NCBI GenBank assembly: GCA_966211685.1
Contig: CBIHOX010000011.1
Span: 7,649-71,648, forward strand
Direction: 5' to 3'
Length of the DNA: 64,000 bases
Origin: an uncultured Pseudoduganella sp.
GTDB taxonomy: Bacteria; Pseudomonadota; Gammaproteobacteria; Burkholderiales; Burkholderiaceae_D
The notes beneath the pieces were generated by a model, which saw only the letters and a list, made by a program, of their open reading frames with translations, did no database searches and was not told where the DNA came from. Position numbers and translations under genes: made by a program. Positions 1,593 through 19,290 of this stretch are shown here, piece by piece; the first letter of the stretch is position 1, and each line of letters starts with the position of its first letter.

Positions 1593-4500
1593 TCAGGCAA
1601 CAAACAAATCGTAGCTGACCCCGCCCCCGATGACTGCAGCCAGCGTCTGCTGGTTTTCCGGGCTTTCACTGAACGCGGCCAGCACGTCCGAAACGGGCGC
1701 CAGTTTCTTGTTCAGCACATCCAGCCAGAAGGCATATCCGCCCTGTTCCGGCGCACGGTGCAAAACATTGTTGTACAGGCGCGTGACCAGTTCTTCATTG
1801 GTCGGGCTGGCGCCGTACAGGGCCTTGAATTCCGGCGAATTCACAAAGCCGGCCGCCACCGCGCCTTGCGTGACGCCATTGTCCATCATGGCGATCCAGA
1901 AGCCCAGGCCGGTGGCGTCGGGCGCGCGGTCGAACGCGGCCTGGTACATGCGGTACGCCTGGCCGGCAATACCGCTGGCGTCGGTATCGAACGCCATGGC
2001 GGCCTTGTCGTCGAACACCAGGCGCTCGACATTGGCCAGCACATCCTTGCCGTCCGCGCCTTTGTCCACGGTCAGGCCGCCGTTGCCGTCAGGCAGGACC
2101 GTAAAGGCGCTGCGCGCGCCCTGGTAGCGCACCGTATCGAGTCCGGCGCCGCCGTCGAACACGTCGTTGCCCGCGCTGCCGGCCAGGGTGTCGTTGCCGC
2201 TGCCGGCCAGCAGGTTGTCGCTGCCCGCCGTGCCACTGATCTTGCCGGACTGCACGGCCGGTTCATTGCGCGTGGTGAAATCATACGCATCGGTTGCCAG
2301 GTTGCCGTTGCCGGCCTGGTCGAGAATCACGCCGGCCGGCACCACCAGCTTGTAATGTGTGTTGCTCTTCAATGGCGCCGTCGGGTCGATGGTGACCGTG
2401 CCACCATTGATCGTGATGCGGTCGCTGGTGGCGACGTTGAAGCGTTCCACCAAGGTGCCATTGTCCAGCACGAGGTCGACCATCCCGGCGCCGCGCACGA
2501 CGGGATCGGAAAACACCACGGTGATGTTACTGTTCAGTGCTGCATTGAGCGCGCCATCTTCGGGTGTCACCGAGACCACTTCCAGCCCCTTGGCTTCGGT
2601 GGTGAAGTTGTACGCGTCGGTCGCGTCGATGCCGTTGCCAGCCAGGTCGACCACGGCTCCGGCCGGCACCACCATATGGTAATGCGTGCCCGGCTGCAAG
2701 TTCGCGGAAGGATCGATGGTCACCACGACGCCATTGACTGTCACGCGCTGGCTGGTCGCGATATTGAAGCTTTCCACCACGGTGCCGTCATCGAGCGCCA
2801 GCTGGACGATGCCTGTGCCGCGCTTGACGGGCTCCGAGAAGATCACCGTGATATTGGAATCGACGGCAACATCGGCGGCGCCATTGTCGGGGAAGATCGA
2901 AGACAGGTCGGGGCCCGAACTGTCGTTGTTGGTGACGCTGACCGTATACGCGCCGGTGGTGCTGTTCATGCCGCTGGCCGCCACATAATATGTGCCGCCC
3001 GTGATTGCCTTGTAGGTCAGGCTGGCATTAACACCGCCGCCACCATCGTCATTGCTGTCCATCAAGGAAGCGACATTGTTATACAGGCGCAGCAGTGGAT
3101 CGAGCGTGCTGCCGCTGGCGGCTTTCACGTTGATGGTATAAGTTGCGCCGGCCGCCAGGGTCACCGCGAACCAGTCGCTGTCGCCAACCGCTTCCACGTT
3201 GCCCTGCGCCGTGCCGCCGACGGTGGCCTTGCCGGTGGTGACCGTGCTGGCGGCAAAATCGTCAACCCCGGCCGTCAGCGTGGCCGCCACGGTATAGCCG
3301 CCAGTGCTGCCGTTGAGGTTACCTGCCGAGACGTAATAGGTACCGGCAGCGGTCGCCTTGAACGACAGTTGCGACGAACCATTGAGCCCCCCGTTACCAG
3401 TGGACAACAGCGTGCCGGCGCTGTTGTACAACTTTATCTGCGACGACAGCAGGTTGCCGCTGAACGGCGTCTGGTCGAAGCGGTAAGTCGAGCCCGATGC
3501 CAGTGTCACGGCAAACCAGTCCGTGTCCGCCGAGGTTTCGATTTTGCCGGTCGTGAAGCTGTCAATGGCCAGCTTGCCGGTGGTGGCCGTGGTGGCGGCA
3601 AAATCATCGGCGAAGCCGACCTGGAAGGCCGACACGCGGTAGCTGCCGGTGCTGGTATTGGAAGCGCCGGCCGACACATAGTAAGTGCCGCCCACGGCCG
3701 GCTTGTACGACACTTGCGACGCGCCGCCCTCCGTCGAGGCGCCGGTGGCCAGCAGGCTGCCGAAACTGTTGTAGATTTTCACCTGCGAGCTCAGCGCGCT
3801 GCCGGTGGCCGGGAACTGGTCGAAACGGTAATTCGTGTCGGCCTTGAGGGTAATGGCGAACCAGTCCTTGTCGCCGGACGTTTCCACCTTGCCGGTCACG
3901 CTGCCGTTCACCGCAAGCTTGCCGGTGGTGCCGGTGCCGGCCAGGTAATCATCGACGCCGGCAGCCACTTTGGCGGCCACGCTGTAGCTGCCGATGCTGC
4001 TGTTGAGCGATCCGGCCGACACGAAATACGTGCCGCCGGCAGTCGGGGTATAGGTCAGTTGCGACGCATTGCCGGCCGTGGCCACGCCGGTCGCCAGCAG
4101 GCCGCCAAAGCTGTTATAGATTTTCACCTGCGAGCTCAAGGCGCTGCCGGCGGCCGGCAACTGGTCGAAACGGTAGGTCGTGCCGGCCGTTAAGGCGACG
4201 GCAAACCAGTCCGCATCGCCCGACGTTTCCACCCTGCCTGAAGTGCTGCTGCCCACCGCCAGCTTGCCGGTGGTGCCGATGCCCGCCGCATAATCGTCGG
4301 CCGGGGCGCCCAGCTTGGTGAGGTCGACCACCTTGTCGCTGAACGAGGCGAATTCGATATTGCTCAGGGTATCGGTACCGCCGGCACTGACCACCGTGAA
4401 TTTATTGGTGGTGGGATTGTAGGTAATGGTGGCGCTGGTGGAGGTGCCGCTGAAGGAGGCGGTATCGACGCCCTCGCCGCCGTCCAGCGTATCGTTGCCC

Positions 4501-5564
4501 GCGCCGCCTGTCAGGTTGTTGTTGGCGCTGTTGCCGATCAGCGTATCGTTGCCGCTGCCGCCAATCGCGTTTTCTATGATGCAGCCGAATGCAATGCCGA
4601 GGTTGTCGGTGCCGTCATAGGTGGGCTTGGTGGCGCCATTGCTGAAGTCAAAGCCTGCCGTCGAGGCCGATTCGATGGTGATCCTGGAATAATGGCCGGG
4701 CTGCAAGTCGATGATGCAGCCTTTCGTGAAGTTCGACACGGAAATCGTATCGGTGCCGCCCGCATCCCAGATGGTGCGCATGAACGGCGTGGCGGGATCG
4801 AAGGTGTAGGTATCGCTGCCGGTTTTGTAGGATGTATTGGCGCCATACAGGTATTGCATGGCGGCGATATCGTAGACCATCGGCGACTCGGCCTCGATCT
4901 TGCGGGTCTCGTAGCCGCCGCTGGCGTTGATGAAGCCAAACAGGCTGTGCGCCCCGTCGGTATAGGACATCACCGTGAACTGTTCGGTATCCTGGCCGGC
5001 CGGCAGCGCCGGGGCCGGTTCGCCGAACGGGTGCTTGAAGCCCAGCGCATGGCCGAGTTCGTGGATCAGCGTGCTGTAATTCTGCGATCCCACCGCCCAG
5101 CTGCCATTGTACAGTTCGCTCTTATTGGCATTGAACCAGATATCGCCGCCGTTGGGCTCGACACTGTCCGGCGTCGAGCCCCAGGCCAGGGTGTCGCCCG
5201 TCAATGCGGACGACCAGGCCAGGCGGATGTCCCCCACCGTGGTGCTGTTGTCGACCGATTTCACGAACGTCAGGTTGGCCACCGCACTCCAGCTCTGCAA
5301 CGCCGCCACGGCGGCCGCCTGCTGGGTCGCATTGAACGCAAAATGCTTGGTGGCAAGATGTTCCTGCGCATCGGAATATTGGCTGCTGCCATTCGCCCCG
5401 AAGAAACTGGCAGCGCCGCCGTCGGCCCACGGAAAACTGTACGTCAGCGTCACGCCGGTGCCCAAGGCCCCGCCCCATTTATGCCCCTCGAGCAACGCAT
5501 TGATCAGTAACTGGGAACTTTTGGCAACACTGGTGGCAGTGCCGGCAGCGGTGGGCGATGGCAT
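1593..5564 (-). CDS. Serralysin-like M10B metalloprotease P1: catalytic domain, RTX, 4 PPC-like repeats, 2 Ig-like (Big_5/SbsA-like) domains, RTX, C-terminal DUF4214-type domain
   Basis: HELGHALGFKH zinc motif, Met-turn TVMSY, DIAAMQYLYGAN, GGxGxD repeats, four DD(Y/F)xAxxxTTGK...DWFAV repeats, C-terminal QAYRMYQAAFDRAPD...FVNSPEF...FSESPEN. No signal peptide. Start moved to MPSP (5564) to match the paralogs. Confidence 0.9.
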   Translation of the reverse strand: MPSPTAAGTATSVAKSSQLLINALLEGHKWGGALGTGVTLTYSFPWADGGAASFFGANGSSQYSDAQEHLATKHFAFNATQQAAAVAALQSWSAVANLTFVKSVDNSTTVGDIRLAWSSALTGDTLAWGSTPDSVEPNGGDIWFNANKSELYNGSWAVGSQNYSTLIHELGHALGFKHPFGEPAPALPAGQDTEQFTVMSYTDGAHSLFGFINASGGYETRKIEAESPMVYDIAAMQYLYGANTSYKTGSDTYTFDPATPFMRTIWDAGGTDTISVSNFTKGCIIDLQPGHYSRITIESASTAGFDFSNGATKPTYDGTDNLGIAFGCIIENAIGGSGNDTLIGNSANNNLTGGAGNDTLDGGEGVDTASFSGTSTSATITYNPTTNKFTVVSAGGTDTLSNIEFASFSDKVVDLTKLGAPADDYAAGIGTTGKLAVGSSTSGRVETSGDADWFAVALTAGTTYRFDQLPAAGSALSSQVKIYNSFGGLLATGVATAGNASQLTYTPTAGGTYFVSAGSLNSSIGSYSVAAKVAAGVDDYLAGTGTTGKLAVNGSVTGKVETSGDKDWFAITLKADTNYRFDQFPATGSALSSQVKIYNSFGSLLATGASTEGGASQVSYKPAVGGTYYVSAGASNTSTGSYRVSAFQVGFADDFAATTATTGKLAIDSFTTGKIETSADTDWFAVTLASGSTYRFDQTPFSGNLLSSQIKLYNSAGTLLSTGNGGLNGSSQLSFKATAAGTYYVSAGNLNGSTGGYTVAATLTAGVDDFAASTVTTGKATVGGTAQGNVEAVGDSDWFAVTLAAGATYTINVKAASGSTLDPLLRLYNNVASLMDSNDDGGGGVNASLTYKAITGGTYYVAASGMNSTTGAYTVSVTNNDSSGPDLSSIFPDNGAADVAVDSNITVIFSEPVKRGTGIVQLALDDGTVVESFNIATSQRVTVNGVVVTIDPSANLQPGTHYHMVVPAGAVVDLAGNGIDATDAYNFTTEAKGLEVVSVTPEDGALNAALNSNITVVFSDPVVRGAGMVDLVLDNGTLVERFNVATSDRITINGGTVTIDPTAPLKSNTHYKLVVPAGVILDQAGNGNLATDAYDFTTRNEPAVQSGKISGTAGSDNLLAGSGNDTLAGSAGNDVFDGGAGLDTVRYQGARSAFTVLPDGNGGLTVDKGADGKDVLANVERLVFDDKAAMAFDTDASGIAGQAYRMYQAAFDRAPDATGLGFWIAMMDNGVTQGAVAAGFVNSPEFKALYGASPTNEELVTRLYNNVLHRAPEQGGYAFWLDVLNKKLAPVSDVLAAFSESPENQQTLAAVIGGGVSYDLFVA

Positions 5565-5716
5565 GGTTGTCTCCGGAAGAAAGGCAAGAAGTTTGTCCTG
5601 AACGATGGATTGTACGTGAAATATTACCAACAATCAGTAGCAATATATCCACAGTAACTAAAATTCCACCGCCCTGCCCCGTCCCGTTCTACAGCCCGCT
5701 GCTCTCCGCCAGACTG

Positions 5717-8700
5717 CTAGCCGCCATACGGCTGATAACCGAAGCCGCTGCCGATTACCGCCACCATGTTGTCCTGGTTTTCCGGGCTTTCGCTGAACGC
5801 GGCCAGCACGGCCGGCACCGTGGCCAGTTTGTTGTCGAGCACATTGAGCCAGAATGCGATGCCGCCACTGTCGGGCGCGCGGTGCAGCACGTTCTTGTAC
5901 ATGCGCGTCACCAATTCTTCATTGGTGGGGCTGGCGCCATATAACTGCTGGAATTCCGGGGAATTGACAAAGGCGGCAGCGACGTCTTGCCGGGTCACGC
6001 CGTTGTCCATCATGCTGATCCAGAAACCGAGGCCGGTGGCGTCCGGCGTGCGGTCGAACGCGGCCTGGTACATGCGGTAAGCCTGGCCGGCAATGCCGCC
6101 GGCCCCGGTATCGAAGGCCATCGCGCCATCGTTGAACAACAGCCGCTCCACGTTGGTGAGCACATCCTTGCCGGCCGCGCCCTTGTCCACCGTGACCACC
6201 ATGGCAGCGCCGCCGCCCTCGGCCTGCGCCGTGAAGGCGGCGCGCGCGCCCTGGTAGCGCACCGTATCGAGCCCGGCGCCGCCATCGAACAGATCGTTGC
6301 CGGCGCTGCCCGCCAGCGTATCGTTGCCGCTGCCGGCCAGCACGTCATCGCTGCCGGCAGTGCCGGCATAGGTTCCGGGCTGGTTCGATGGCGCGCCGCG
6401 CGTGGTGAAATCGTAGCCATCGATTCCCGCAATGCCGTTGCCGGTCAAATCCGTGATGGCGCCGGCCGGCGTCAACAACCTGTAGTGAGTACCTACTTTC
6501 AATGGCACGGTCGGGTCGATGGTCACCGTGGCGCCATTGATGGCGATGCGCGGGCTGGTGGCGACGTTGAAACTCTCCACCACGGTGCCATCGTCCAGCA
6601 GCAGTTGCACGTTGCCGCTGCCGCGTTTGACGGCTTCGTTGAAGGTGGCCGTCAGGTTGGCGTTCAAGGTCACCCCGGTGGCGCCATCGTCCGGGAATAC
6701 CGACACCAGTTCCGGCGCCGCCGTATCGCCATTGGCGACCGAGACCGTGTAGGCGCCAAGGGTGTTGTTGGCGCCGCTCGCGGCAATGTAATACGTGCCG
6801 CCGGCGGCGGCCTTGAACGACAGGCGCGCATTGAGGCCGCCGCCGCCATCGTCATTGGTGTCGAGCAAAGTGGCGGCATTGTTGTACAAGCGCAGCAATG
6901 GATCGACCAGGCTGCCGGCCGCGCCCTTGACCTCGATGGTGTAGGTGGCGCCGGCCGTCAAGGTGACGGCAAACCAGTCGGCGTCGCCGGCCGATTCGAT
7001 AGTGCCGGCCGTCGCGCCGCCCACCGTGACCTTGCCGTTGGTGGCCGTGGTGGCGCTGAAATCATCGGTGACCTGCACTGCGGCAGCCAGCGCGTACGCG
7101 CCCGTGCTGGTATTGCCGGCCCCGGCGGAGACGTAATACGTGCCGGCGGTCGTGGCCTTGTACGTCAGTTGCGATGTGCCGCCGGTGCCGGCCGCGCCGG
7201 TGGCCAGCACCGTACCGGCGCTGTTGAAGATCTTGATTTGCGAGCTGAGCTGGCTACCCTGGGCCGGGGCCAGGTCGAAGCGGTAGGACGTGCCGGCCGC
7301 CAGGGTCACGGCGAACCAGTCGCTGTCGCCGGACGTTTCCACGGTGCCCGTGGCGCTGGAACCGATGGCCAGCTTGCCGGTGGTGGCCGTGGTGGCCGTG
7401 TAATCGTCGGCAATCACCACTTGCGCCACCGCCACGCTGTATGCTCCGGTGCTGGCGCCGTTGCCGCTGTCGGCCGCCGCGGCCGAGACGTAATACGTAC
7501 CGGTGGCGGTGGCCTTGTAGGTCAGGCTGCCATTGCCGCCGCCTCCGCCATTGTCATCGGTGGCTTGCAGCGCGCCGGCGCTGTTATACAGGCGTAAGAG
7601 CGGATCGAGCTGGCTGCCGCCGGCCGCGTTCAGGGTAATCGTGTACGTGGCGCCGGCCGTGAGGGTCACGGCGAACCAGTCCGCGTCGCCCGGCGTTTCC
7701 ACGTTGCCGGTGGCGCTGGCGCCCACGGTCACCTTGCCGGTGGTGGCGCTGGTGGCGGTGTAATCGTCGGTCGCGACCAGCGCCGCGGCCACGCTGTAGG
7801 CGCCGGTGGCCGCGCCCGTGGCCACGCCAGTGGCGGCCGAAGCCGCCACGTAATACGTGCCGGCCGTGGTGGTCTTGTACGACAATTGCGACGCGCCGCC
7901 GGCGGCCGTGCCGCTCGCTTGCAGCTGGCCCGCGCTGTTGTAGATTTTGACTTGCGGCGACAGCGTGCTGGCGCCGGCCGGCGCCACGTCGAAGCGGTAG
8001 GTGGTATTGGCCGCCAGGGTAATGGCAAACCAGTCGGCGTCGCCCGAGGTTTCCACGCTGCCGGTGGCGCTCGAACCTACCGCCAGCCTGCCGCCGGTGG
8101 CGGTGGTGGCGGTATAGTCGTCTGCCGCCACCGTGAGCGTGGCCGCCACGCTGTAGCTGCCGGTGCTGTTGCTGGTGCCGCCGGCCGACACATAATACGT
8201 GCCGGCCGTGCTTGCCTTGTACGACAGTTGCGATGCGCCGCCGGCCGCGCTGGTCCCGGTGGCCAGCAAACTGCCGCTGCCGCCATAGATGCGCACTTGC
8301 GAGGTCAACGCACTGCCGGTCACCGGCGCCAGGTCGAAACGGTAAGTCGCGCCGGCCGCCAGGGTCACGGCAAACCAGTCGGTGTCTCCCGCTGTTTCCA
8401 CGCTGCCGGTGGCGCTGGCGCCGACCACGAGCTTGCCGGCGGTGGCGGTGGTGGCCGTGTAATCGTCGCCAACGCCGCCCAAGGTGCTCAAGTCCACGGT
8501 CTTGTCGGAAAACGAGGCGAATTCGATATTGCCCAGGATATCGGTGCCGCCGCCGGCCGTCACCACGGTGACCTTGCGCGTGGCCGCGTTGTAGGTGAGC
8601 GTGGCGGCGCCCGCCAGGCCGGAAAACACGGCAGTATCGGTACCGGCGCCGCCATCGAGCGTATCGTTGCCGGCGCCGCCGGCCAGGCTGTTGTTGGCGT

Positions 8701-9742: not shown

Positions 9743-9806
9743 GGAAACTCCGCTGAAAGATACTGGCCGGCTAGTAGTTACGCAAAATTTACCGTCAATG
9801 CCTGCT

Positions 9807-9894
9807 GTAGGCGGATTAGCGCGAAGCGCGTAATCCGCCACGCATGCGTGCCCGTGGCCTGCCTGCCGGATTACGCTGCGCTAATCCGGCCTAC
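9807..9894. repeat. Inverted pair of GTAG REPs
   Basis: GTAGgcggattagcgcgaagcgcgtaatccgcc (9807-9839) and gccggattacgctgcgctaatccggcCTAC (9865-9894); the second is the exact reverse complement of 1484-1513. Confidence 0.85.
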
Positions 9895-10004: not shown

Positions 10005-12275
10005 TCACCCTGTATACGGTTGATAACCGAACCCGGCTCCAATCACCAGCGCCGTGGCTTCGCGGTTTTCCGGACTTTCGCTGAACGCCGCCAGCACATC
10101 CGGCACCGGCGCCAGCTTCCTGTCCAGCACGTCCAGCCAGAACGCCTTGCCGGCCGGCTCCGGCGCCCGGTGCAGCACGTTGTTGTACAGGCGCGTCACC
10201 AGTTCTTCATTGGTGGGATGGGCGCCATACAGCGCCTTGAATTCCGGCGAATCCACGAATGCCGCTGACACCTGCTGTTGCGTGACGCCCTTGTCCATCA
10301 TGGCGATCCAGAAGCCCAGCCCCACCGCGTCCGGCGCACGGTCGAACGCGGCCTGGTACATGCGGTACGCCTGCCCCGCCACGCCGCTGGCGCCGGTGTC
10401 GAACGCCATCGCGCCATCGGTAAACAGCAGCCGTTCCACGTTGGTCAGCACATCCTGCCCGCCCCCGCTCTTGGTGACCGTGATGGCGCCGCCGGCGTTG
10501 GCCTGCGCCGTGAAAGCGCTGCGCGCGACCTCGTAAGTCACCACATCGAGTCCGCCCCTGCCATCGAAGAGGTCGTTGCCGGCGCTGCCGACCAGGGTAT
10601 CGTTGCCGCTGCCGGCCCGCAAGTCATCGTTGCCCAGTGTGCCGGCCAGCGTGGTCGGCGCCCCCGTGTCGAACTCGCCGACCGACAGGCGGTAACTGCC
10701 GATGGTATTGTCGGCGCCGCCGGCCGCCGCGTAATACCTGCCGTCCTTGTCGGGACTGAACATGATGCGCGCATTGACGCCGCCGCCACTGTTGTCATCG
10801 CTGCCTATCAGTGCGCCATTGCTGTCATACATGATCAACACCGGATCGATTCCACCGCCATTGGCCGCCCCCAGGTTCAGCTCATAGATGACGTTCGCGC
10901 GCAACGTGATGGCGAACCAGTCGGTATCGCCGAAGGTCTCCACGCTGCCCATGGCGGCGCCGCCGACCACCAGGGCGCCGGCAGTCGCGGTGCCGGCCTG
11001 GTAATCGTCCGTCATTTCGCCCAACGTGCGCAAATCCAGCACCTTGCCCCTGAACGAGGCGTATTCGATATCGGTCAGCGTATCGGTGCCCCAATAACGC
11101 GTCGTGACGGTGGCTTGCCTGGTGAGCGCATCGTAAGTAATGGTGGCCTCGCCGGGCTCGCCTTCGAAGATGGCGGTATCCATCCCCTGTCCGCCCTGCA
11201 AGGTATCGTCGCCGTAGCCTCCCGCCAGGATATTGTTGGCGTCATTGCCAATCAACAGGTCGTTGCCATCGCCGCCAATTGCGTTTTCTATCACGCAGCC
11301 ATACGCGATGCCCAGGTTGTCCGTGCCGTCATACGTCGGCAAGGTGGCGCCGGGAAAGTCCACGGTGGGTGTGGAATCCATGGCGAGCGATGAATAATGG
11401 CCAGGCCGCAAATCGACCGTGCACCCTTTGAAAAAACCCGCGATGGAGATGGTATCGGTGCCGCCGGCGTCCCAGATGGTGCGCAGGAACGGCGTATGTT
11501 GATCAAAGCTATAGGTATCGTTGCCCGTCATGTAAGACATGTTGGCGCCATACAGGTACTGGATCGCCGCGATGTCATTGACCATCGGCGTGTCCGGATA
11601 GATGTACTTGTAGTTGTAATACCGGCTGTTGCCGCTGCTCGTGATGTAGCCATACAGGCTGTGCGCGGCGTTGGTGTACGACATCACCGTATATTGATGC
11701 GAGTCTTCGGGCCCGGGCAAGACCGGCGTATCTTCGAACGGGTGTTTCAATCCCAGCGCATGGCCGATTTCATGCATCAGCAGTTTGTAATTGAACCCGC
11801 CCACGTCCCACGATCCGTCGCGGACGCTGTTGATGTTGTCATTGAGCCAGATGTCGCCGCCGCTCGGGTAATAATCGTCGGGATATGAAGCCCAGGCGCC
11901 CGCATCGGAAGGCAGCGCGGACGACCACGCGAACCGGATATCGCCCACCGTGCTGCCGGTGTCGGCAGATTGCGTGAATGTCAGGTTGGCCACCGACGCC
12001 CATGCCTGCAGGGCCATCACGGCGGCGACCAGCTCCGTGCTGTTCAAGGCACGGTGCGAGGTTGCCAGATGTTCTTGCGCGTCAGAATAGTCGGAACCGC
12101 CATCGGGGCCCAGGAAGGTGGCGGAATCGGCAACGGCCCAAGGAAAACTGTAGGTCAGCGTGACGCCGGTGCCAAGTGCCCCGCCCCATTTCATGCCGGC
12201 GACTAAAGCATCGATGATGAGTTGCGAACTTGGGACGACGGCAGTGGTGGGGCTGGCGGAACTCGGCGATGGCAT
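10005..12275 (-). CDS. Serralysin-like metalloprotease P3: 1 PPC-like repeat, C-terminal DUF4214-type domain
   Basis: HEIGHALGLKH, TVMSY, RTX repeats, a single DDYQAGTATAG...DWFAITL repeat, DUF4214-type tail. Confidence 0.9.
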   Translation of the reverse strand: MPSPSSASPTTAVVPSSQLIIDALVAGMKWGGALGTGVTLTYSFPWAVADSATFLGPDGGSDYSDAQEHLATSHRALNSTELVAAVMALQAWASVANLTFTQSADTGSTVGDIRFAWSSALPSDAGAWASYPDDYYPSGGDIWLNDNINSVRDGSWDVGGFNYKLLMHEIGHALGLKHPFEDTPVLPGPEDSHQYTVMSYTNAAHSLYGYITSSGNSRYYNYKYIYPDTPMVNDIAAIQYLYGANMSYMTGNDTYSFDQHTPFLRTIWDAGGTDTISIAGFFKGCTVDLRPGHYSSLAMDSTPTVDFPGATLPTYDGTDNLGIAYGCVIENAIGGDGNDLLIGNDANNILAGGYGDDTLQGGQGMDTAIFEGEPGEATITYDALTRQATVTTRYWGTDTLTDIEYASFRGKVLDLRTLGEMTDDYQAGTATAGALVVGGAAMGSVETFGDTDWFAITLRANVIYELNLGAANGGGIDPVLIMYDSNGALIGSDDNSGGGVNARIMFSPDKDGRYYAAAGGADNTIGSYRLSVGEFDTGAPTTLAGTLGNDDLRAGSGNDTLVGSAGNDLFDGRGGLDVVTYEVARSAFTAQANAGGAITVTKSGGGQDVLTNVERLLFTDGAMAFDTGASGVAGQAYRMYQAAFDRAPDAVGLGFWIAMMDKGVTQQQVSAAFVDSPEFKALYGAHPTNEELVTRLYNNVLHRAPEPAGKAFWLDVLDRKLAPVPDVLAAFSESPENREATALVIGAGFGYQPYTG

Positions 12276-12308: not shown

Positions 12309-12797
12309 TTAATGCAGCACCGCCCCCTCCGGCACCGGCGCAACCCCTGTCAGCCAGTCCGGCCAAGGCAGCGCCCAATAGCCCAGTTCACTTCCACGCC
12401 GCACGATGGCGAGCCACTGGCGCAGCGGCACGGTTTCCAGCAACAATTGCGCGCTGCCGCCGTCCGCCGATTTGAACGTCAGGCTCACCACGTGGTCGGC
12501 CAGCGCAATGTCGACCTCGTGCACCAGCCAGGCCACACTGTCCTGGGCCGCCTGCACGGGCGCCGAAGGCTGCAGGCTGGACTGGGCGGCCTGCTGCGCG
12601 AACTCTTGCGCCAGCGCGGGCAGCGCCTGCGCGCCGCCCTGCGTTTTCAGCCAGCCGACCAGGTGGTCGAGCAGCAGGCGCACCATGCGCCGTGTCAGCC
12701 ACAACACGACGGGTGCGCCGTCGCCCGTTTCCGCCGACATGCGCAAACGGTCTTCAAATGCCTCGTATTCAGTGGTGAGGCGGTGCAAGGTAATCAT
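12309..12797 (-). CDS. Hypothetical cytoplasmic protein (162 aa) inside the protease array
   Basis: GC3-rich ORF MITLHRLTTEYEAFEDRLRMSAE...VLWLTRRMVRLL...HEVDIA that fills the gap between P4 and P3. No signal peptide or transmembrane segment. Confidence 0.7.
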   Translation of the reverse strand: MITLHRLTTEYEAFEDRLRMSAETGDGAPVVLWLTRRMVRLLLDHLVGWLKTQGGAQALPALAQEFAQQAAQSSLQPSAPVQAAQDSVAWLVHEVDIALADHVVSLTFKSADGGSAQLLLETVPLRQWLAIVRRGSELGYWALPWPDWLTGVAPVPEGAVLH

Positions 12798-12899: not shown

Positions 12900-14825
12900 T
12901 TATCCGGTATACGGCTGGTAACCGAACCCGGCCCCGATCACCAGCGCCATGGCTTCGCGGTTTTCCGGACTTTCACTGAACGCCGCCAGCACGTCCGACA
13001 CCGGCGCCAGCTTCCTGTCCAGCACGTCGAGCCAGAACGCCTTGCCGCCCGGCTCCGGCGCGCGGTGCAGCACGTTGTTGTACAGGCGCGTGACCAGTTC
13101 TTCATTGGTGGGATTGGCGCCATACAGCGCCTTGAATTCCGGCGAATTCACGAACCCGGCCGAGACCTGCTGCTGCGTGACGCCGCGGTCCATCATGGCA
13201 ACCCAGAAGCCCAGTCCCACCGCGTCCGGCGCGCGGTCGAACGCGGCCTGGTACATGCGGTAGGCCTGCCCCGCCACGCCATTTGCGCCGGTATCGAACG
13301 CCATCGCGCCATCGGTAAACACCAGGCGCTCGACGTGCGCCAGCATATCCTGCCCGCCCGCGCTTTTCGCCACCGTGATGGCGCCGCCGCTGCCGACCTG
13401 CACGGTGAAGGCGCTGCGCGGTCCCTGGTAATTGACCGTATCGAGCCCGGCGCCGCCGTCAAACACGTCGCTGCCGGCGCTGCCGGCCAGGGTGTCGTTG
13501 CCGCCGGCGCCCAGCAGGTTGTCGTTGCCGGCCGTGCCGGTAATGGCGCCGGACTGCGGCGCGGGTGCGCGCAAGTCCACCATGCGGTCGCTGAAGGCGG
13601 CAAACTCGATGCCGGTCAGCGTATCGGCGCCGCCGGCCGCCGTCGTGATGCGGGTTTGCCCGGTCGCTGCATCGAACGTGATGGTGGCGCTGGTGGACAG
13701 GCCGCTGAAACTGGCGGTGTCAAGCCCGGCGCCGCCGTCGAGCGTATCGTCGCCGGCGCCGCCGGTCAGGTTGTTGGCCGCATCGTTACCGATCAGGAAA
13801 TCATTGCCGGCGCCGCCCACCGCGTTTTCTATCACGCAGCCAAAGGCGATGCCCAGGTTGCCGGTGCCGTCATAGCCGACCGCGGGCGGGGTGCCGCTCC
13901 AGTTGAAACCCGCGGTTGATGCGGACTCGATGGTGATGTTCGAATAATGGCCCGGCTGCAAATCAATCATGCAGCCCTTGGTGAAATTCGACACGGAAAT
14001 CGTATCGATGCCGCCCGCATCCCAGACCGTGCGCAGGAACGGCGACGCGGGGTCGAAGGTGTAGGTATCGTTGCCGGTTTTATACGCGGTGTTGGCGCCA
14101 TACAGGTACTGGATCGCGGCAATGTCGTCCACCATCGGCGTATCGGGCACGATGCGTTCGGTATGGTACGTCTGGCTGTTGCCGGACCTGGTGATGTAGC
14201 CATACAGGCTGTACGGGCCGTCGGTATACGACATCACCGTGTATTGCCGGGTATTGAATGGCGCGCTCAGGACCGGGGTATCGTCGAATGGGTGTTTCAA
14301 ACCCAGCGCATGGCCGATTTCGTGGATCAGCGTGTAATAGTTGTAATCCCCGGCGTTCCAGCCATCATTGAGGTTGCTGGCCAATGAGGCATTGATCCAC
14401 ACGTCGCCGCCATTGGGGAAAACCTTGTCCGGATAATACGCCCATGCGGCGGTCTCCATGTCGTTGCTGGACGCCCAGCCGAAGCGGATATCGCCAACGA
14501 CCGTGGCAGTGTCGGGAGAGGGCGCGAACGTGACATTGGCCACCGCGGCCCATGCCTGCAAGGCCGCGGCGGCGGCAGCCTGCTGCACGGTATTCAGGCC
14601 GAAATGCGTGGCCGCCTGGTATTCCATGTCGGTCGAATACGGGGTCTGGCTGTCCGGCCCGGAAAACGTCGCGTTGCCGCTGCCGGCCCACGGAAAGCTG
14701 TAGGTCAGCATGACACCGGTGCCGGATGCCCCGCCCCACTTCATGCCGGCCAGCAGCGCGTTGATGATCAGTTGGGACGAATTGGCGACCGGCGTGGCGG
14801 TGCCGGCGGAACTGGGCGATGGCAT
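12900..14825 (-). CDS. Serralysin-like metalloprotease P4: minimal form, no PPC-like or Ig-like spacer, C-terminal DUF4214-type domain
   Basis: HEIGHALGLKH, TVMSY, RTX repeats followed directly by a second RTX block and the DUF4214-type tail. Confidence 0.9.
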   Translation of the reverse strand: MPSPSSAGTATPVANSSQLIINALLAGMKWGGASGTGVMLTYSFPWAGSGNATFSGPDSQTPYSTDMEYQAATHFGLNTVQQAAAAAALQAWAAVANVTFAPSPDTATVVGDIRFGWASSNDMETAAWAYYPDKVFPNGGDVWINASLASNLNDGWNAGDYNYYTLIHEIGHALGLKHPFDDTPVLSAPFNTRQYTVMSYTDGPYSLYGYITRSGNSQTYHTERIVPDTPMVDDIAAIQYLYGANTAYKTGNDTYTFDPASPFLRTVWDAGGIDTISVSNFTKGCMIDLQPGHYSNITIESASTAGFNWSGTPPAVGYDGTGNLGIAFGCVIENAVGGAGNDFLIGNDAANNLTGGAGDDTLDGGAGLDTASFSGLSTSATITFDAATGQTRITTAAGGADTLTGIEFAAFSDRMVDLRAPAPQSGAITGTAGNDNLLGAGGNDTLAGSAGSDVFDGGAGLDTVNYQGPRSAFTVQVGSGGAITVAKSAGGQDMLAHVERLVFTDGAMAFDTGANGVAGQAYRMYQAAFDRAPDAVGLGFWVAMMDRGVTQQQVSAGFVNSPEFKALYGANPTNEELVTRLYNNVLHRAPEPGGKAFWLDVLDRKLAPVSDVLAAFSESPENREAMALVIGAGFGYQPYTG

Positions 14826-14875: not shown

Positions 14876-14903
14876 ATTGTATGCCGAAAAGAATTCCTGT
14901 TAG
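14876..14903 (-). promoter_or_regulatory. Putative sigma70 promoter of P4 (conserved with the P5 promoter)
   Basis: Minus strand CTAACA-ggaattcttttcggca-TACAAT; 22 of 24 nt identical to 19331-19354. Confidence 0.55.
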
Positions 14904-14949
14904 AAGCCGGAATCACAGGAATCGCGGTGGCGATGCGTGCACGCCACCA

Positions 14950-17900
14950 TCAGGCAAATCCCGTATAAGGCTGATAATTGAAACCGGAACCGATCAGTGT
15001 CGCCAGCGCCGCCTGGTTTTCCGGACTTTCACTGAACGCGGCCAGCACGGCCGGCACGGTCGCGAGTTTCTTGTCGAGCACGTTGAGCCAGAATGCATAA
15101 CCGCCCGCGTCCGGTGTGCGGTGCAGGACGTTCTGGTACATGCGGTTCAACAAATCCTCATTGGTGGGATTGGCGCCATACAGGGCCTTGAATTCCGGGG
15201 AATTCACGAATCCGGCCGACACGTCCAGCTGCGATACGCCATGGTCCATGACGGCGATCCAGAACCCCAAGCCGCCCGCGTCGGGCGCGCGGTCGAACGC
15301 GGCCTGGTACATGCGGTACGCCTGCCCCGCCACGCCGGTGGCGCCGGTATCGAACGCCATGGCGCCGTCAGTGAACAACAGGCGCTCGACGTGGGCCAGC
15401 AGATCCTGCCCGCCGGTCGCCTTGGTGACGACGATCTCGCCATTGCTGGTGACTTGCGCGGAAAAGCCGCTGCGCACGCCCTGGTAGCTCACCACGTCGA
15501 GCCCGGCGCCGCCATCGAAGATGTCGCTGCCCAGGCTGCCCACCAGCGTATCGTTGCCGCTGCCGGCCAGCAAATCATCGTTGCCCAGCGTGCCGGTCAA
15601 CGTGGTTGGCTGGTTCGATGGCGCGCTGCGGGTATAAAAATCATACGTATTGGTGCCCGCATACAGGTTGCCTGCCACATCCGTGATGGCGCCGGCGCCC
15701 ACCACCAGCTTGTATTGTTTGCCGGCCACCAGCGCGGCGGTCGGATCGACCGTCAGCGTGGCGCCATTGATGGCCAGGCGCGGGCTGGTGGCCGCGCCGA
15801 AGGTTTCCACCACGGTGCCGTCGGCCAGCACCAATTGCAGGGTGCCCAGGCCGCGCTTGATGTTTTCCGAGAACGTCACCGTGATATTGCTGTTCACCAG
15901 CACGTTGCTGGCGCCATCGGCCGGATCGAACGACACCGCCACCGGCGCCACGAGGTCGAGCTGGCCGGCCGACAGGCTGTAGCCGCCGATGGTATTGCCG
16001 GCGCCGCTGGCCGACGCGTAATAAGTCCCGGCCGTGACGGGACTGTAAGTCACGCGGGCATTGAGGCCGCCGCCACTGTTGTCATCGCTGGTCAGCAGCG
16101 CGCCGTTGCTGTTGTAGAGGCGCAGGATGGGGTCGATTTCACTGCCCTCGGCGGCGGCCAGGTTCAGTGCATAGGTGGCGCCCGCGTTCAGCGTGACGGC
16201 GAACCAGTCGGCGTCGCCCGCGGTTTCCACGAAGCCGGCCGCACTGATACCCGGCACCAGCTTGCCGGTGGTGGCCGTGGTGGCGGCGTAATCGTCCGGG
16301 GCCGCGGTCTGTACCGCCGTCACGGTATAGCCGCCGGTGCTGCTGTTGAGCGTACCGGCCGACACGTAATACGTGCCGGACGCGGTGGCCCGGTACGTCA
16401 GCTTGGCGTTGACGCCGCCACCGCTGTCATCGTCGCTGGCCAGCAAAGTGCCGCTGCCGTTATACAGGCGCAGCAAGGGATCCAGCGCGCTGCCATTGGC
16501 CACCGATACGGCAAACGTATAGGTGGCGCCGGCCGTGAGCGTGACGGCGAACCAGTCCGCGTCGCCTGAGGCTTCCACACTGCCGGTGACGGTACTGCCC
16601 AGCACCAGCTTGCCGGTGGTGGCCGTGGTGGCCGCATAATCGTCGGCCGCCGCCGTCTGCGCGGCAGCCACGCTGTAGCCGCCGGTACTGGTGTTGAGCG
16701 CGCCGGCCGAGACGTAGTACGTGCCGCCCGTCAGCGCCTGGTATGACAGTTGCGATGCGCCGCCGGTGCCGGCTACGCCGGTGGCCAGCAGGGCCCCGGT
16801 GCTGTCATACATTTTCACTAGTGACGACAGCGCGCTGCCGGCCGTTGGCGTCTGGTCGAAGCGGTATGTGACGCCGGCCGCGAGGGTGACGGCAAACCAG
16901 TCGGTGTCGCCGGACACTTCGACGCTGCCGGCGGTCTTGCCGCCGACCGTCAATTTGCCCGTGGTGGCGGCGGACGATGCGAAATCATCGGGCGCCGCGG
17001 TCAGCACGGCCGCCACGCTGTAGCCGCCTGTGCTGGTGTTGAGCGCCCCGGCCGACACGTAATACGTGCCGCCCGTCAGCGCCTTGTACGACAATTGCGA
17101 CGTGCCGCCGCTGCCGGCGGCGCCAGTGGCCAGCAAGGCCCCGTTGCCGTCATAGATTTTCACTTGCGCCGACAGCGCGCTGCCGGCCGACGGCGCCTGG
17201 TCGAACCGGTACGTGGCGCCGGCCGTCAGGGTCACGGCAAACCAGTCGGCGTCGCCGGCGGTTTCCACCGTGCCGGCGCTGCTGCCACCCACCGCCACGG
17301 CGCCGGTGGTCGCGGTGGTGGCCGCATAATCGTCGGCCGCAGCCGTCAGCACGGCCGCCACGCTGTAGTTGCCGGTGGAGGTATTGGTGGCGCCGGCCGA
17401 CACGTAATACGTGCCGGCCGTGGTGGCCTTGTACGACAGTTGCGACGCCCCGCCGCTGCCGGCTGTGCCGGTACCCAGCAATACGCCGCTGCCGCTGTAG
17501 ATCTTCACTTGCGGCGACAACGCGCTGCCGCTGGCGGGCGACTGGTCGAAGCGGTACGTGGCGCCGGCCGCCAGGGTCACTGCGAACCAGTCGGCGTCGC
17601 CCGCGGTTTCCACGCTGCCGGTGGCCGCGCCGCCCACCGTCAATTTGCCGGTGGTGGCAACGGTGGCCGCGTAATCGTCAGCCGCCGCGGTCAGCACGGC
17701 CGCCACGCTGTAGTTGCCGGTGGAGGTATTGGTGGCGCCGGCCGACACGTAATACGTGCCGGCCGTGGTGGCCTTGTACGACAGTTGCGACGCCCCGCCG
17801 CTGCCGGCTGTGCCGGTACCCAGCAATACGCCGCTGCCGCTGTAGATCTTCACTTGCGGCGACAACGCGCTGCCGCTGGCGGGCGACTGGTCGAAGCGGT

Positions 17901-19290
17901 ACGTGGCGCCGGCCGCCAGGGTCACGGCAAACCAGTCGCTGTCGCCCGACGTTTCCACGCTGCCGGTCGCGGCCCCGCCGACCGCCAGCACGCCGGTGGT
18001 CGCGGTGGTGGCCGCATAATCGTCGGGTACGGCGCCCCAGGTGCGCAAGTCCACCACCTTGTCGCTGAACGAGGCATATTCGATATCGGCCAGCGTATCG
18101 GTACCGCCCGCGGCCGTGACGATGGTGGCCTGTTTGGTGACGGCGTTATACGTGATGGTGGCGGCCGAAGACAGGCCGCTGAACGCGGCGGTATCGTTGC
18201 CCAGGCCGCCCTGCAGCGTATCGTTGCCGGCGCCGCCGGTCAGGCTGTTGTCGGCGTCATTGCCGATCAACAGGTCGTTGCCGCTGCCGCCAATCGCGTT
18301 TTCAATCACGCAGCCATACGCAATGCCGAGGTTGTCGGTGCCGTCATAGGTCGGCAGTTGGGCGCCGCTAAAGCCCGACGTCGACGCGGACGCAATCGTG
18401 ATCGATGAATAATGGCCGGCCTGCAAATCGATCGTGCAACCGGCGGAAAAATTCGCCACCGAAATGGTATCGGTGCCGCCCGCATCCCAAATGGTGCGCA
18501 GGAAGGGTGTCGAGGAGTCGAAGGTATAGGTGTTGTTGCCGGTCATGTACGACGTGTTGGCGCCATACAGGTACTGGATCGCGGCGATGTCGTCCACCAT
18601 CGGCGTATCCGGATAAATGTACTCGTAGTTATAAAACCGGCTGTTGCCGCTGCTCGTGATATAGCCATACAGGCTGTGCGCGGCGTTGGTGTACGACATC
18701 ACCGTGTATTGCAGCGAATCCGCCGCCCCGGTCAGGACCGGACTGTCTTCGAACGGGTGTTTCAAGCCCAGCGCGTGGCCGATTTCATGCATCAGCAGGC
18801 TGTAGTTGAATTCACCGGCGCTCCACGATCCACTGGTGATGCTGCTGATGTTGGCATTGATCCAGACGTCGCCACCGCTCGGGTAATAATTGTTGGGGTA
18901 CGACGCCCAGGCGCCAGCGGTGGAAGGCAGCGCCGACGACCAGGCAAAGCGGATGTCGCCGACAGTGGTGCTGGTGTCGACGGACTTCGTAAACGTCAGG
19001 TTGGCCACGGACGCCCATGCCTGCAGGGCCGCGGTCGCGGCAGCCTGCTCCGTGCTGTTCAAGCCATAGTGCTGGGTCGCCTGGTGTTCCTGTGCGTCAG
19101 AATAGTCGGAACTGCCGTTGGGACCGACGAACGTCGCGGTCCCCGCATCGGCCCACGGGAAACTGTAGGTAATGGTGGCGCCGGTGCCGACGGCGCCGCC
19201 CCATTTAATGCCGGCTAACAAAGCATTAATGATGAGTTGCGAACTGTCGGCAACGGAAGTGGTACTGCTGGCGGAACTCGGCGATGGCAT
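14950..19290 (-). CDS. Serralysin-like metalloprotease P5: 6 PPC-like repeats, 1 Ig-like domain, C-terminal DUF4214-type domain
   Basis: HEIGHALGLKH, TVMSY, RTX repeats, six DD(Y/F)A repeats, DUF4214-type tail. Confidence 0.9.
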   Translation of the reverse strand: MPSPSSASSTTSVADSSQLIINALLAGIKWGGAVGTGATITYSFPWADAGTATFVGPNGSSDYSDAQEHQATQHYGLNSTEQAAATAALQAWASVANLTFTKSVDTSTTVGDIRFAWSSALPSTAGAWASYPNNYYPSGGDVWINANISSITSGSWSAGEFNYSLLMHEIGHALGLKHPFEDSPVLTGAADSLQYTVMSYTNAAHSLYGYITSSGNSRFYNYEYIYPDTPMVDDIAAIQYLYGANTSYMTGNNTYTFDSSTPFLRTIWDAGGTDTISVANFSAGCTIDLQAGHYSSITIASASTSGFSGAQLPTYDGTDNLGIAYGCVIENAIGGSGNDLLIGNDADNSLTGGAGNDTLQGGLGNDTAAFSGLSSAATITYNAVTKQATIVTAAGGTDTLADIEYASFSDKVVDLRTWGAVPDDYAATTATTGVLAVGGAATGSVETSGDSDWFAVTLAAGATYRFDQSPASGSALSPQVKIYSGSGVLLGTGTAGSGGASQLSYKATTAGTYYVSAGATNTSTGNYSVAAVLTAAADDYAATVATTGKLTVGGAATGSVETAGDADWFAVTLAAGATYRFDQSPASGSALSPQVKIYSGSGVLLGTGTAGSGGASQLSYKATTAGTYYVSAGATNTSTGNYSVAAVLTAAADDYAATTATTGAVAVGGSSAGTVETAGDADWFAVTLTAGATYRFDQAPSAGSALSAQVKIYDGNGALLATGAAGSGGTSQLSYKALTGGTYYVSAGALNTSTGGYSVAAVLTAAPDDFASSAATTGKLTVGGKTAGSVEVSGDTDWFAVTLAAGVTYRFDQTPTAGSALSSLVKMYDSTGALLATGVAGTGGASQLSYQALTGGTYYVSAGALNTSTGGYSVAAAQTAAADDYAATTATTGKLVLGSTVTGSVEASGDADWFAVTLTAGATYTFAVSVANGSALDPLLRLYNGSGTLLASDDDSGGGVNAKLTYRATASGTYYVSAGTLNSSTGGYTVTAVQTAAPDDYAATTATTGKLVPGISAAGFVETAGDADWFAVTLNAGATYALNLAAAEGSEIDPILRLYNSNGALLTSDDNSGGGLNARVTYSPVTAGTYYASASGAGNTIGGYSLSAGQLDLVAPVAVSFDPADGASNVLVNSNITVTFSENIKRGLGTLQLVLADGTVVETFGAATSPRLAINGATLTVDPTAALVAGKQYKLVVGAGAITDVAGNLYAGTNTYDFYTRSAPSNQPTTLTGTLGNDDLLAGSGNDTLVGSLGSDIFDGGAGLDVVSYQGVRSGFSAQVTSNGEIVVTKATGGQDLLAHVERLLFTDGAMAFDTGATGVAGQAYRMYQAAFDRAPDAGGLGFWIAVMDHGVSQLDVSAGFVNSPEFKALYGANPTNEDLLNRMYQNVLHRTPDAGGYAFWLNVLDKKLATVPAVLAAFSESPENQAALATLIGSGFNYQPYTGFA
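17345..17925. repeat. 236-bp direct repeat, 345-bp period, inside P5
   Basis: 17345-17580 and 17690-17925 look identical base for base on manual comparison. Confidence 0.85.

What the first reader, a model, noticed from the sequence alone, without database searches (positions are those of the whole stretch)
1593..19290. Graded spacer lengths (4, 5, 1, 0, 6 repeats) between catalytic head and anchor
The paralogs keep the same head and tail but differ in the number of ~115-aa DD(Y/F)...DWFAV repeats and Ig-like domains: P1 4+2, P2 5+1, P3 1+0, P4 0+0, P5 6+1. Lengths run from 641 to 1446 aa. Inference: the repeats act as rigid Ca-binding stalks that hold active sites at different heights relative to the O-antigen and S-layer, or act as avidity modules for different substrates.
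Basis: partly seen in the sequence, partly recalled or inferred. Interest (0 to 1): 0.7.

Follow-up and report, generated by a model that had tools for sequence, protein, structure and literature searches.

The report
Five tethered proteases with different spacers
A soil bacterium (Pseudoduganella) carries five neighbouring copies of a secreted zinc protease that share one catalytic head and one tail, probably used for docking to the cell surface, but have 0 to 7 calcium-type beta-sandwich modules in between; the pattern is real but is an ordinary kind of domain shuffling, and its purpose is untested.

Summary
Five minus-strand genes (641-1446 aa) share a serralysin-type head (60-76% identity) and an RTX + 2xDUF4214 tail (69-83%). 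They carry 4, 5, 1, 0 and 6 repeats of ~115 aa and 2, 1, 0, 0 and 1 Big_5 Ig domains.

The repeats are PPC domains (PF04151), with a fold like the ColG/ColH collagen-binding domain.

Counted as modules the series is bimodal, not graded: 0 and 1 against 6, 6 and 7. It arose by tandem duplication inside genes and recombination between paralogs.

The tail recurs on 19 proteins in this genome. It resembles Psh, a T1SS-exported RTX-DUF4214 protein proposed to bind O-antigen. A complete T1SS and an S-layer-like gene flank the array.

Three headless PPC-array + Big_5 + tail proteins, and published PPC biochemistry, favour binding or reach over a pure ruler. Rigidity could not be tested: the AF2 linkers have low confidence and the model contains no Ca.

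Of 118 other species in the genus, 19 have head homologs. All are short forms except P. ginsengisoli, which has one Ig. Similar long architectures exist in other Burkholderiales.

The scan noted a related serralysin with a shared docking module in another genome (e1-4183233). I rate this a new variant of a known kind, of moderate interest.

The parts
1593..5564 (-). P1, 1323 aa from the MPSP start (the ORF runs to 5633). Head 4299-5564; PPC x4 (A A A B) 2919-4298; Big_5 x2 2235-2918; RTX+2xDUF4214 tail 1596-2234.
5717..9742 (-). P2, 1341 aa from the MPSP start (the ORF runs to 9841). Head 8468-9742; PPC x5 (A A B A B) 6722-8467; Big_5 6365-6721; tail 5720-6364.
10005..12275 (-). P3, 756 aa. 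Head 11010-12275; one type-B PPC 10665-11009; tail 10008-10643. The last ~230 nt are 93-96% identical to P4 (gene conversion).
12900..14825 (-). P4, 641 aa. Head 13539-14825 is joined directly to tail 12903-13538, with no PPC and no Ig. Its head is sister to the single P. ginsengisoli gene.
14950..19290 (-). P5, 1446 aa. Head 18025-19290; PPC x6 (A A A A B B) 15952-18024; Big_5 15595-15951; tail 14953-15594. Repeats 1 and 2 are 93% identical at nt level with a 236-nt exact run.
1..1389 (-). 5' part of a PrtD-type T1SS ABC transporter. The MFP and TolC-like OMP follow on the same strand just outside the window (G000:C11:4324-9052).
12309..12797 (-). 162-aa ORF between P3 and P4. It has no family match and no signal peptide.
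19370..20617 (-). GT4-family glycosyltransferase
20652..21467 (-). SapC-family protein (PF07277), the family named after the Campylobacter fetus S-layer secretion locus
21606..28928 (-). 2440-aa RTX protein with an N-terminal DUF4214 domain; an S-layer-like candidate. Only its first ~180 aa are conserved with the 1516-aa protein at the syntenic place in P. ginsengisoli.

Best explanation
Shown:
- These are five tandem paralogs of a type-I-secreted serralysin-family (M10B) zinc metalloprotease.
- Each is a full serralysin unit (catalytic domain plus RTX beta-roll), followed by 0-6 PPC beta-sandwiches of the ColG/ColH collagen-binding-domain type and 0-2 Big_5 Ig domains. Each ends in a compact RTX beta-roll plus 8-helix (2xDUF4214) module.
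- The number of middle modules changed by tandem duplication inside each gene and by recombination between neighbours. The result is two size classes: short (P4, P3) and long (P1, P2, P5).

Inferred:
- The adjacent ABC-MFP-TolC system exports the proteins C-terminus first.
- The DUF4214 tail then holds them on the cell envelope (LPS O-antigen or the S-layer), as proposed for Psh and as the N-terminal DUF4214 domain of the neighbouring S-layer-like protein suggests.
- The PPC/Ig array, folded and stiffened by extracellular Ca2+, both reaches outward and binds polymeric substrates. The long forms would then work on bulky or insoluble material beyond the envelope, and the short forms close to the surface.
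For: Head:
- HExxHxxGxxH and the VMSY Met-turn are present in all five.
- Pfam gives Peptidase_M10 and M10_C; NCBIfam Zn_serralysin scores 1e-52; PDB serralysins score 1e-32.

Export:
- ABC, MFP and OMP lie directly downstream.
- The MPSP start is conserved, and no N-terminal hydrophobic signal-peptide-like stretch is seen on reading the translations.

Tail:
- The AF2 model has pLDDT 93.2 and pTM 0.88, with a beta-roll like T1SS lipases and CyaA plus a helical bundle.
- The same module sits on 19 ORFs with unrelated passengers.
- Psh is an RTX-DUF4214 protein exported by a T1SS, acts cell-autonomously, and is proposed to bind O-antigen.
- The S-layer-like proteins of this genome and of P. ginsengisoli share only the N-terminal DUF4214 region.

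Repeats:
- PF04151 hits; ColH CBD by sequence at E = 0.003; the ColG tandem CBD 5iku ranks third by fold.
- Acidic residues are invariant.
- dN/dS is 0.3-0.7 against 0.2-0.3 for head and tail, so the repeats are constrained but less strictly.

Binding role:
- Three headless PPC-array + Big_5 + tail proteins exist.
- E495 PPC domains bind protein substrates through the DxDxY motif, which corresponds to DxDWF here.

Origin:
- Type-A repeats form one clade with within-gene sister pairs, and last repeats pair by position.
- P5 r1/r2 share a 236-nt exact run, and the P3/P4 3' ends are 93-96% identical.
Against: - No experiment on these proteins exists.
- O-antigen binding by DUF4214 rests on a preprint whose binding evidence is gene neighbourhood and in-silico docking. 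Foldseek found no solved LPS-binding domain like it, only weak phycobilisome-linker similarity.
- Two lipoproteins carry the module at their N-terminus, so its ligand need not be O-antigen.
- In characterised proteases, PPC domains are often cleaved off after secretion. That would separate the head from the tail.
- AF2 gave no defined orientation between repeats.
- Most homologs work without any middle module.
Confidence: 0.55

Rival explanations
1. Molecular ruler. The PPC/Ig array is a rigid, Ca-stiffened stalk with no ligand of its own. The paralogs exist to place the same active site at set heights within or above the O-antigen and S-layer.
For: - The array always lies between head and tail, and Big_5 is always next to the tail.
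- Other family members fill the same position with unrelated beta-sandwich families: Big_5 alone, Big_13/Big_6, or mixed Ig/PPC. That suits a generic spacer.
- P1 (4+2) and P2 (5+1) reach the same module total.
- In ColG, Ca2+ orders the linker between CBDs.
- This genome has both the long proteases and a much longer S-layer-like protein than P. ginsengisoli: 2440 against 1516 aa.
Against: - Heights are not graded (0, 1, 6, 6, 7 modules).
- Headless arrays with the same tail would be stalks holding nothing.
- The PPC surface motif needed for substrate binding in E495 is invariant here.
- AF2 shows no fixed inter-repeat geometry.
- The size match with the S-layer-like protein rests on two genomes.
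Confidence: 0.18
2. Processing module. As in many 'pre-peptidase C-terminal' proteases, the array and tail serve secretion, folding or latency and are cut off afterwards. The mature enzymes would then be free and alike, and repeat number would matter only for export or maturation kinetics.
For: - PF04151 is named for this behaviour.
- E495 is secreted as M-C1-C2 and trimmed to M-C1 and M.
- Ca-dependent beta-sandwiches suit T1SS cargo, which must fold only outside the cell.
Against: - An elaborate, well-conserved tail (dN/dS 0.2-0.3) shared by 19 proteins, including non-proteases that could not cut themselves, is hard to explain as a disposable piece.
- The repeats are under purifying selection.
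Confidence: 0.13
3. Neutral copy-number drift. The repeat numbers are by-products of unequal crossing-over in a recombination-prone tandem array and have no distinct function. The paralogs differ, if at all, through their heads.
For: - There is a recent duplication or conversion in P5 and a conversion between P3 and P4.
- Long forms were not found in the other 118 species of the genus searched.
- Constraint on the repeats is relaxed.
Against: - Most repeats are old (30-79% identity) yet intact, with all invariant residues kept.
- Similar long architectures are kept across species elsewhere, for example HIIPIPPT in seven proteins.
Confidence: 0.14

Closest known systems
Serralysins (M10B: AprA of Pseudomonas aeruginosa, PrtC of Dickeya, serralysin of Serratia) with their AprDEF/PrtDEF T1SS
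   Same: Zinc motif, Met-turn, an RTX beta-roll after the catalytic domain, no signal peptide, and an adjacent ABC-MFP-OMP exporter.
   Different: - Classical enzymes end after the beta-roll (about 470 aa) and are released. These continue with PPC/Ig arrays and an RTX-DUF4214 tail.
- The NCBIfam serralysin score is 177-186 against a cutoff of 500.
- No inhibitor (Inh/AprI) gene was recognised.
Psh (PP_1794) of Pseudomonas putida KT2440, an RTX-DUF4214 protein (bioRxiv 10.64898/2026.09.02.748959)
   Same: The same two-part design as the tail, export by a neighbouring T1SS, and surface association next to envelope sugar genes.
   Different: Psh is a stand-alone shield with no enzyme. Here the module is the C-terminal tag of proteases and about 14 other passengers. 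Direct homology of the tail to Psh was not tested; only shared Pfam families were seen.
Clostridial collagenases ColG and ColH (M9B), with variable numbers of PKD and collagen-binding domains
   Same: - The paralogs share a catalytic module but differ in the number of C-terminal Ca-binding beta-sandwich modules.
- The PPC repeats match the ColH CBD by sequence and the ColG tandem CBD by fold.
- In ColG, Ca orders the inter-CBD linker.
   Different: A different peptidase clan, Sec-secreted, and no anchor. Their CBDs are terminal and bind collagen. Up to six copies occur here against one or two there.
Sap (SapA), the S-layer-editing metalloprotease of Caulobacter crescentus, and the PrtC-type protease found in Methylomicrobium album BG8 S-layer preparations
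   Same: A serralysin-like protease genetically or physically associated with a T1SS-secreted RTX S-layer.
   Different: NCBIfam ProteaseSapA scores 166-195 against a cutoff of 1200. The Sap C-terminal part resembles RsaA, not DUF4214. Sap has no PPC array.
Thermolysin-family protease E495 of Pseudoalteromonas, with two PPC domains
   Same: PPC domains follow a metalloprotease. Binding of protein substrates depends on the DxDxY motif, which corresponds to DxDWF here.
   Different: M4 family, two PPC domains that are trimmed during maturation, and no anchor.

Membership tests
Serralysin family (MEROPS M10B) | HExxHxxGxxH zinc-binding motif | tested here: met
   HE[LI]GHALG[FL]KH is present in all five.
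Serralysin family (MEROPS M10B) | Met-turn with the fifth zinc ligand Tyr (SxMSY) | tested here: met
   YTVMSYT is present in all five translations.
Serralysin family (MEROPS M10B) | C-terminal RTX beta-roll (Peptidase_M10_C) after the catalytic domain | tested here: met
   PF08548 and PF00353 score above the gathering score in all five. PDB serralysins align over query residues ~75-391.
Serralysin family (MEROPS M10B) | Curated family score (NCBIfam NF035945, cutoff 500 bits) | tested here: not met
   177-186 bits. These are relatives of the subfamily model, not members by its cutoff.
Serralysin family (MEROPS M10B) | Export by a dedicated ABC-MFP-OMP type I system | tested here: inconclusive
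   The genes are adjacent on the same strand. Export itself cannot be tested here.
PPC / collagenase CBD-like domain (PF04151) | Pfam match above the gathering score | tested here: met
   P1 55 bits, P2 116 bits and P5 104 bits against a cutoff of 25.9. The P3 repeat was not reported by Pfam but is 62% identical to P5r6.
PPC / collagenase CBD-like domain (PF04151) | Beta-sandwich fold of the ColG/ColH CBD | tested here: met
   The AF2 model is all-beta with per-domain pLDDT of 75-92. Foldseek finds 5iku (ColG s3a-s3b) at E = 3e-11. The sequence match to 3jqw has E = 0.003.
PPC / collagenase CBD-like domain (PF04151) | Ca2+ site formed by the N-terminal linker and the E...DxD loop | tested here: inconclusive
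   D1 D2 E24 D28 D30 are invariant in the 15 repeats aligned, and the sixteenth, P5r2, also keeps them. They align with ColH GTIENTSDQD. Which ColH residues ligate Ca is recalled from the literature and was not checked here.
PPC / collagenase CBD-like domain (PF04151) | Removal or retention after secretion; ligand binding | not testable with these tools
   Needs proteomics and binding assays.
Psh-like RTX-DUF4214 surface module | RTX repeats followed by DUF4214 (PF13946) | tested here: met
   PF00353 and two PF13946 stretches occur in every tail. The fold is compact.
Psh-like RTX-DUF4214 surface module | Neighbouring T1SS and envelope sugar or S-layer genes | tested here: met
Psh-like RTX-DUF4214 surface module | Binding to O-antigen and retention on the producing cell | not testable with these tools
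   Even for Psh this is only proposed.
Caulobacter SapA (NCBIfam NF051884) | Equivalog score of at least 1200 bits | tested here: not met
   166-195 bits.
Big_5 bacterial Ig-like domain (PF13205) | Pfam match above the gathering score | tested here: met
   P1 124 bits (2 copies), P2 72 bits, P5 69 bits.

The most novel reading that the evidence does not exclude
The long and short paralogs form a height-matched set. The DUF4214 tail docks all of them, and the S-layer protein, to the same envelope ligand. The Ca-stiffened 6-7-module arrays lift some active sites through or above an unusually tall S-layer (2440-aa subunit), while P3 and P4 work beneath it. The cell would then run the same chemistry in two separate extracellular compartments.
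Probability: 0.12. Interest if true: 0.65.

Novelty: new variant of a known kind. Interest (0 to 1): 0.4.

Why it matters
If the DUF4214 tail really is a general surface-docking tag, this genome shows a whole set of about 19 proteins displayed through it. They include an S-layer candidate and a five-member protease family whose only large difference is the length of the tether.

That makes a natural experiment for two open questions: what DUF4214 binds, and whether the tether length of surface-held enzymes matters. It is also a possible scaffold for enzyme display on Gram-negative cells.

If the tail is not an anchor, the locus is simply one more example of accessory-domain shuffling in secreted proteases.

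Tried and rejected
- Sequence profile of the repeats against PDB. The top hits were WD40 designs, made of many sub-threshold pieces on a short KLWNxNGQLL-like stretch. I rejected these as low-complexity noise. The only full-length match was the ColH CBD.
- Foldseek of the tail. It found no RsaA N-terminal domain or other LPS-binding fold, only RTX beta-rolls and weak phycobilisome-linker similarity. Structure therefore gives no independent support for O-antigen binding.
- AF2 of three consecutive repeats as a test of rigidity. pTM was 0.44 and the linkers had pLDDT below 50. This is uninformative because Ca2+ is not modelled, and no coordinates were available to measure extension.
- Promoter and terminator scan. 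Counts were at or below the shuffle expectation.
- Strain-level repeat comparison. The long proteins checked (P0005-P0007, i.e. P5, P2 and P1) each sit in a cluster of one sequence on this one contig. Only one genome per species was available.
- The 162-aa ORF as a serralysin inhibitor. It has no Pfam hit, and no N-terminal hydrophobic signal-peptide-like stretch is seen on reading the translation.
- A sixth head paralog. One short form exists elsewhere (C3, 43% identity), but it is not part of the array.


Full report
**What is there**

The region holds five intact minus-strand ORFs, translated. All five share the N-terminus MPSP(S/T), encoded by ATGCCATCGC. For P1 and P2 this lies 23 and 33 codons inside the longest ORF. 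The likely products are therefore 1323, 1341, 756, 641 and 1446 aa.

Pfam finds Peptidase_M10, Peptidase_M10_C, RTX repeats and two DUF4214 stretches in every protein. It finds PPC (PF04151) in P1, P2 and P5, and Big_5 at 2, 1, 0, 0 and 1 copies. The DW[FY]A[VI] motif occurs 4, 5, 1, 0 and 6 times at a 115-aa period, each preceded by DD[YF]. The single P3 repeat is not reported by Pfam but is 62% identical to P5 repeat 6.

**Heads and tails**

Heads (about 422 aa) are 60-76% identical and tails (212-215 aa) are 69-83% identical. Every head has HE[LI]GHALG[FL]KH and the YTVMSYT Met-turn. The heads match the NCBIfam serralysin model at about 1e-52, though far below its cutoff. They match crystal structures of PrtC, AprA and serralysin at about 1e-32 over residues 75-391. 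Each head is thus a whole serralysin, catalytic domain plus beta-roll.

With a 48-sequence alignment the tail folds confidently (pLDDT 93.2, pTM 0.88). It forms a beta-roll of about 80 residues packed on an eight-helix bundle made of the two DUF4214 units. By Foldseek the beta-roll resembles those of T1SS lipases and CyaA. The bundle resembles only phycobilisome linker domains, and weakly.

**The repeats**

A profile of 15 repeats, and a single repeat alone, both hit the ColH collagen-binding domain 3jqw (E about 0.003) as the only full-length match. GTIE..GD.DWF aligns with ColH GTIENTSDQDYF.

An AF2 model of P5 repeats 4-6 gives three beta-sandwiches. The ColG tandem CBD 5iku is the third-best PDB match and the one with the highest identity.

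D1, D2, E24, D28, D30, W31 and F32 are invariant in the 15 repeats aligned, and the sixteenth, P5r2, also keeps them. These correspond to the region that binds Ca2+ in the clostridial CBDs; that part is recalled from the literature, not re-derived here. They also correspond to the D26/D28/Y30 motif that the PPC domains of protease E495 need to bind protein substrates.

The repeats fall into two subtypes.
- **Type A** reads YRFDQ...SALSxQVKIY and lacks the acidic Gly-rich loop.
- **Type B** reads DPLLRLYN...DDxxGGGxNA.

The orders are P1 AAAB, P2 AABAB, P3 B and P5 AAAABB.

**How the numbers arose**

- In a repeat tree, type A is one well-supported clade (100/99) containing within-gene sister pairs: P1r1/r2, P5r1/r2 and P5r3/r4.
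- The last, tail-proximal type-B repeats pair by position: P1r4 with P2r5, and P3r1 with P5r6.
- P5r1 and r2 differ at 23 of 345 nt, all near the ends, leaving a 236-nt identical run. This indicates a recent duplication or conversion. It is the only place where a short-read assembly could have miscounted.
- Heads group P3 with P5. The last ~230 nt of the P3 tail, however, are 93-96% identical to P4, against 73-79% to the others. Neighbouring genes have therefore exchanged sequence.
- dN/dS is 0.21-0.32 for heads and tails and 0.32-0.70 for PPC and Ig modules. The modules are maintained, but less strictly.

Measured from head to tail the spacers are 7, 122, 688, 701 and 810 aa. That is 0, 1, 6, 6 and 7 modules. 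This is two size classes, not a gradient.

**Context**

Downstream on the same strand lie a PrtD-type ABC transporter (window 1-1389 and beyond), an HlyD-type MFP and a TolC-like OMP. Upstream lie a GT4 glycosyltransferase, a SapC-family gene and a 2440-aa RTX protein with an N-terminal DUF4214 domain.

The genome is a 6.39-Mb, 308-contig draft. Its closest named relative is Pseudoduganella ginsengisoli KCTC 42409. That species has a syntenic locus running DnaE ... T1SS ... S-layer-like protein, FecR, CHASE2 cyclase. It has only one protease there, of the form head + Big_5 + tail (757 aa). Its S-layer-like protein shares only the first ~180 aa, the DUF4214 region, with the one here. A conserved anchor with a variable body is a pattern I recall from LPS-anchored S-layer proteins.

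**The tail is a general tag**

An HMM of the five tails finds 19 ORFs in this genome with a full-length copy. Their passengers include:
- DUF5122 and PD40 propellers;
- two further M10 proteases;
- three proteins that consist only of 4-5 PPC domains, one Big_5 and the tail, with no catalytic head.

Two predicted lipoproteins carry the same module directly after the lipobox at the N-terminus. The module is therefore not merely a C-terminal T1SS signal.

A 2026 preprint describes Psh of P. putida as an RTX-DUF4214 protein. It is exported by the adjacent T1SS, protects only the producing cell from phages, and is proposed to coat the O-antigen. The binding evidence there is gene neighbourhood and Boltz-2 docking. 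The preprint also lists serralysin-like peptidases among DUF4214 partners.

**Distribution**

Of 118 other species of the genus, 19 have head homologs. All of those ORFs are 624-678 aa, that is head + tail, except P. ginsengisoli. In the head tree P4 is sister to the P. ginsengisoli gene.

In the public protein collection, head + tail is the commonest form (103 of the 229 proteins I classified). Head + Ig(1-2) + tail is also frequent. Head + PPC/Ig arrays of up to ten modules occur in several Burkholderiales and other lineages. One architecture (HIIPIPPT) is kept in seven proteins.

The two long homologs whose contigs I examined are single genes, one next to SapC and one next to a T1SS and a CHASE2 cyclase. 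The special feature here is the five-gene array that combines both size classes.

**Interpretation**

Shown:
- the identity and order of the domains;
- their evolutionary origin;
- the T1SS, S-layer-like neighbourhood;
- the genome-wide reuse of the tail.

Inferred:
- export by that T1SS;
- retention on the envelope through DUF4214;
- Ca-dependent ordering of the array;
- its role.

Between 'passive ruler' and 'binding/reach module' I favour the second. The reasons are the headless arrays and the conserved binding motif. A spacer contribution is still likely. Unrelated beta-sandwich families occupy the same position in relatives, and P1 and P2 reach the same module total by different mixes.

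Rigidity is open. AF2 gave pLDDT below 50 for each DDYAATTATT inter-repeat segment and pTM 0.44, but it cannot model the Ca2+ that orders the equivalent ColG linker. As a rough estimate, not a measurement, about 3-4.5 nm per module would let six or seven modules span some 20-30 nm if extended.

**Limits**

- No strain-level comparison was possible.
- No residue-level structural alignment to the ColG/ColH Ca sites was available.

**Verdict**

The system is a new variant of known kinds (serralysins, PPC-bearing proteases, RTX-DUF4214 surface proteins). It is of moderate interest, mainly as a natural test bed for DUF4214 anchoring and tether length.

Noticed in passing
window 10008-10240 and 12903-13135: The last ~230 nt of the P3 and P4 genes are 93-96% identical, while the rest of the two genes is 61-80% identical. 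This looks like gene conversion between neighbouring paralogs. It makes P3 a mosaic of a P5-like head and a P4-like tail end.
   Followed up: yes
window about 5600-5625, 9930-9960, 14876-14903, 19331-19358: P1, P2, P4 and P5 each keep a shared GC(G/A)TACAAT box, and P4 and P5 also keep a CT(A/G)(A/T)CAGGAATT box, upstream of the ATG. This suggests each paralog has its own promoter. P3 lacks it. The generic promoter scan as a whole was not above the shuffle expectation.
   Followed up: partly
window 9742-10004: The P2 upstream region carries an extra ~190 nt with two REP-like palindromes (GCCGGATTAGCGCAGCGTAATCCGGC and GCGGATTACGCGCTTCGCGCTAATCCGC).
   Followed up: no
window 12309-12797 (-): A 162-aa ORF lies between P3 and P4. 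It has no Pfam match, no signal peptide and no homolog in the P. ginsengisoli locus. It is not recognisable as a serralysin inhibitor.
   Followed up: partly
G000 contigs C5:31867-37488 and C2:104754-107105: Three proteins consist only of 4-5 PPC domains, one Big_5 and the RTX-DUF4214 tail, with no catalytic head. Two of them are tandem paralogs.
   Followed up: partly
G000 contigs C18:48613-51366 and C2:28999-30732: Two predicted lipoproteins (lipobox LSGCGG / LTGCGG) carry the beta-roll-cap + 2xDUF4214 module at the N-terminus. It is followed by fn3 repeats + YHYH in one and by an FKBP-like end in the other. The module therefore also travels by the Sec/Lol route.
   Followed up: no
window 21606-28928 vs L046:4267-8817: The S-layer-like proteins of this genome (2440 aa) and of P. 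ginsengisoli (1516 aa) share only their first ~180 aa (31% identity, the DUF4214 region). The bodies are unrelated.
   Followed up: partly
L069:15251-17143 (metagenome contig), L046:10873-12750, and window 30979-32937: A CHASE2-domain class III cyclase lies near a serralysin-DUF4214 protease and T1SS in an unrelated metagenome contig (Pfam-annotated). An ORF sits at the matching place in P. ginsengisoli, but its family was not checked. A recurring link is possible.
   Followed up: no
G000:C11:6974-7300 (just outside the window): The T1SS ABC transporter ends in a long Gln/Ala-rich low-complexity tail (QQQQQLQAQAQAQ...AAAAAAAAPAVPAAPAAAAAP), which is unusual for PrtD-type exporters.
   Followed up: no
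L045:6481-8907 (P. ginsengisoli): A different metalloprotease-like protein has RTX, then Big_13 x3 and Big_6 x3 Ig arrays, then the DUF4214 tail. This is the same passenger-array-tail layout built from other beta-sandwich families.
   Followed up: no
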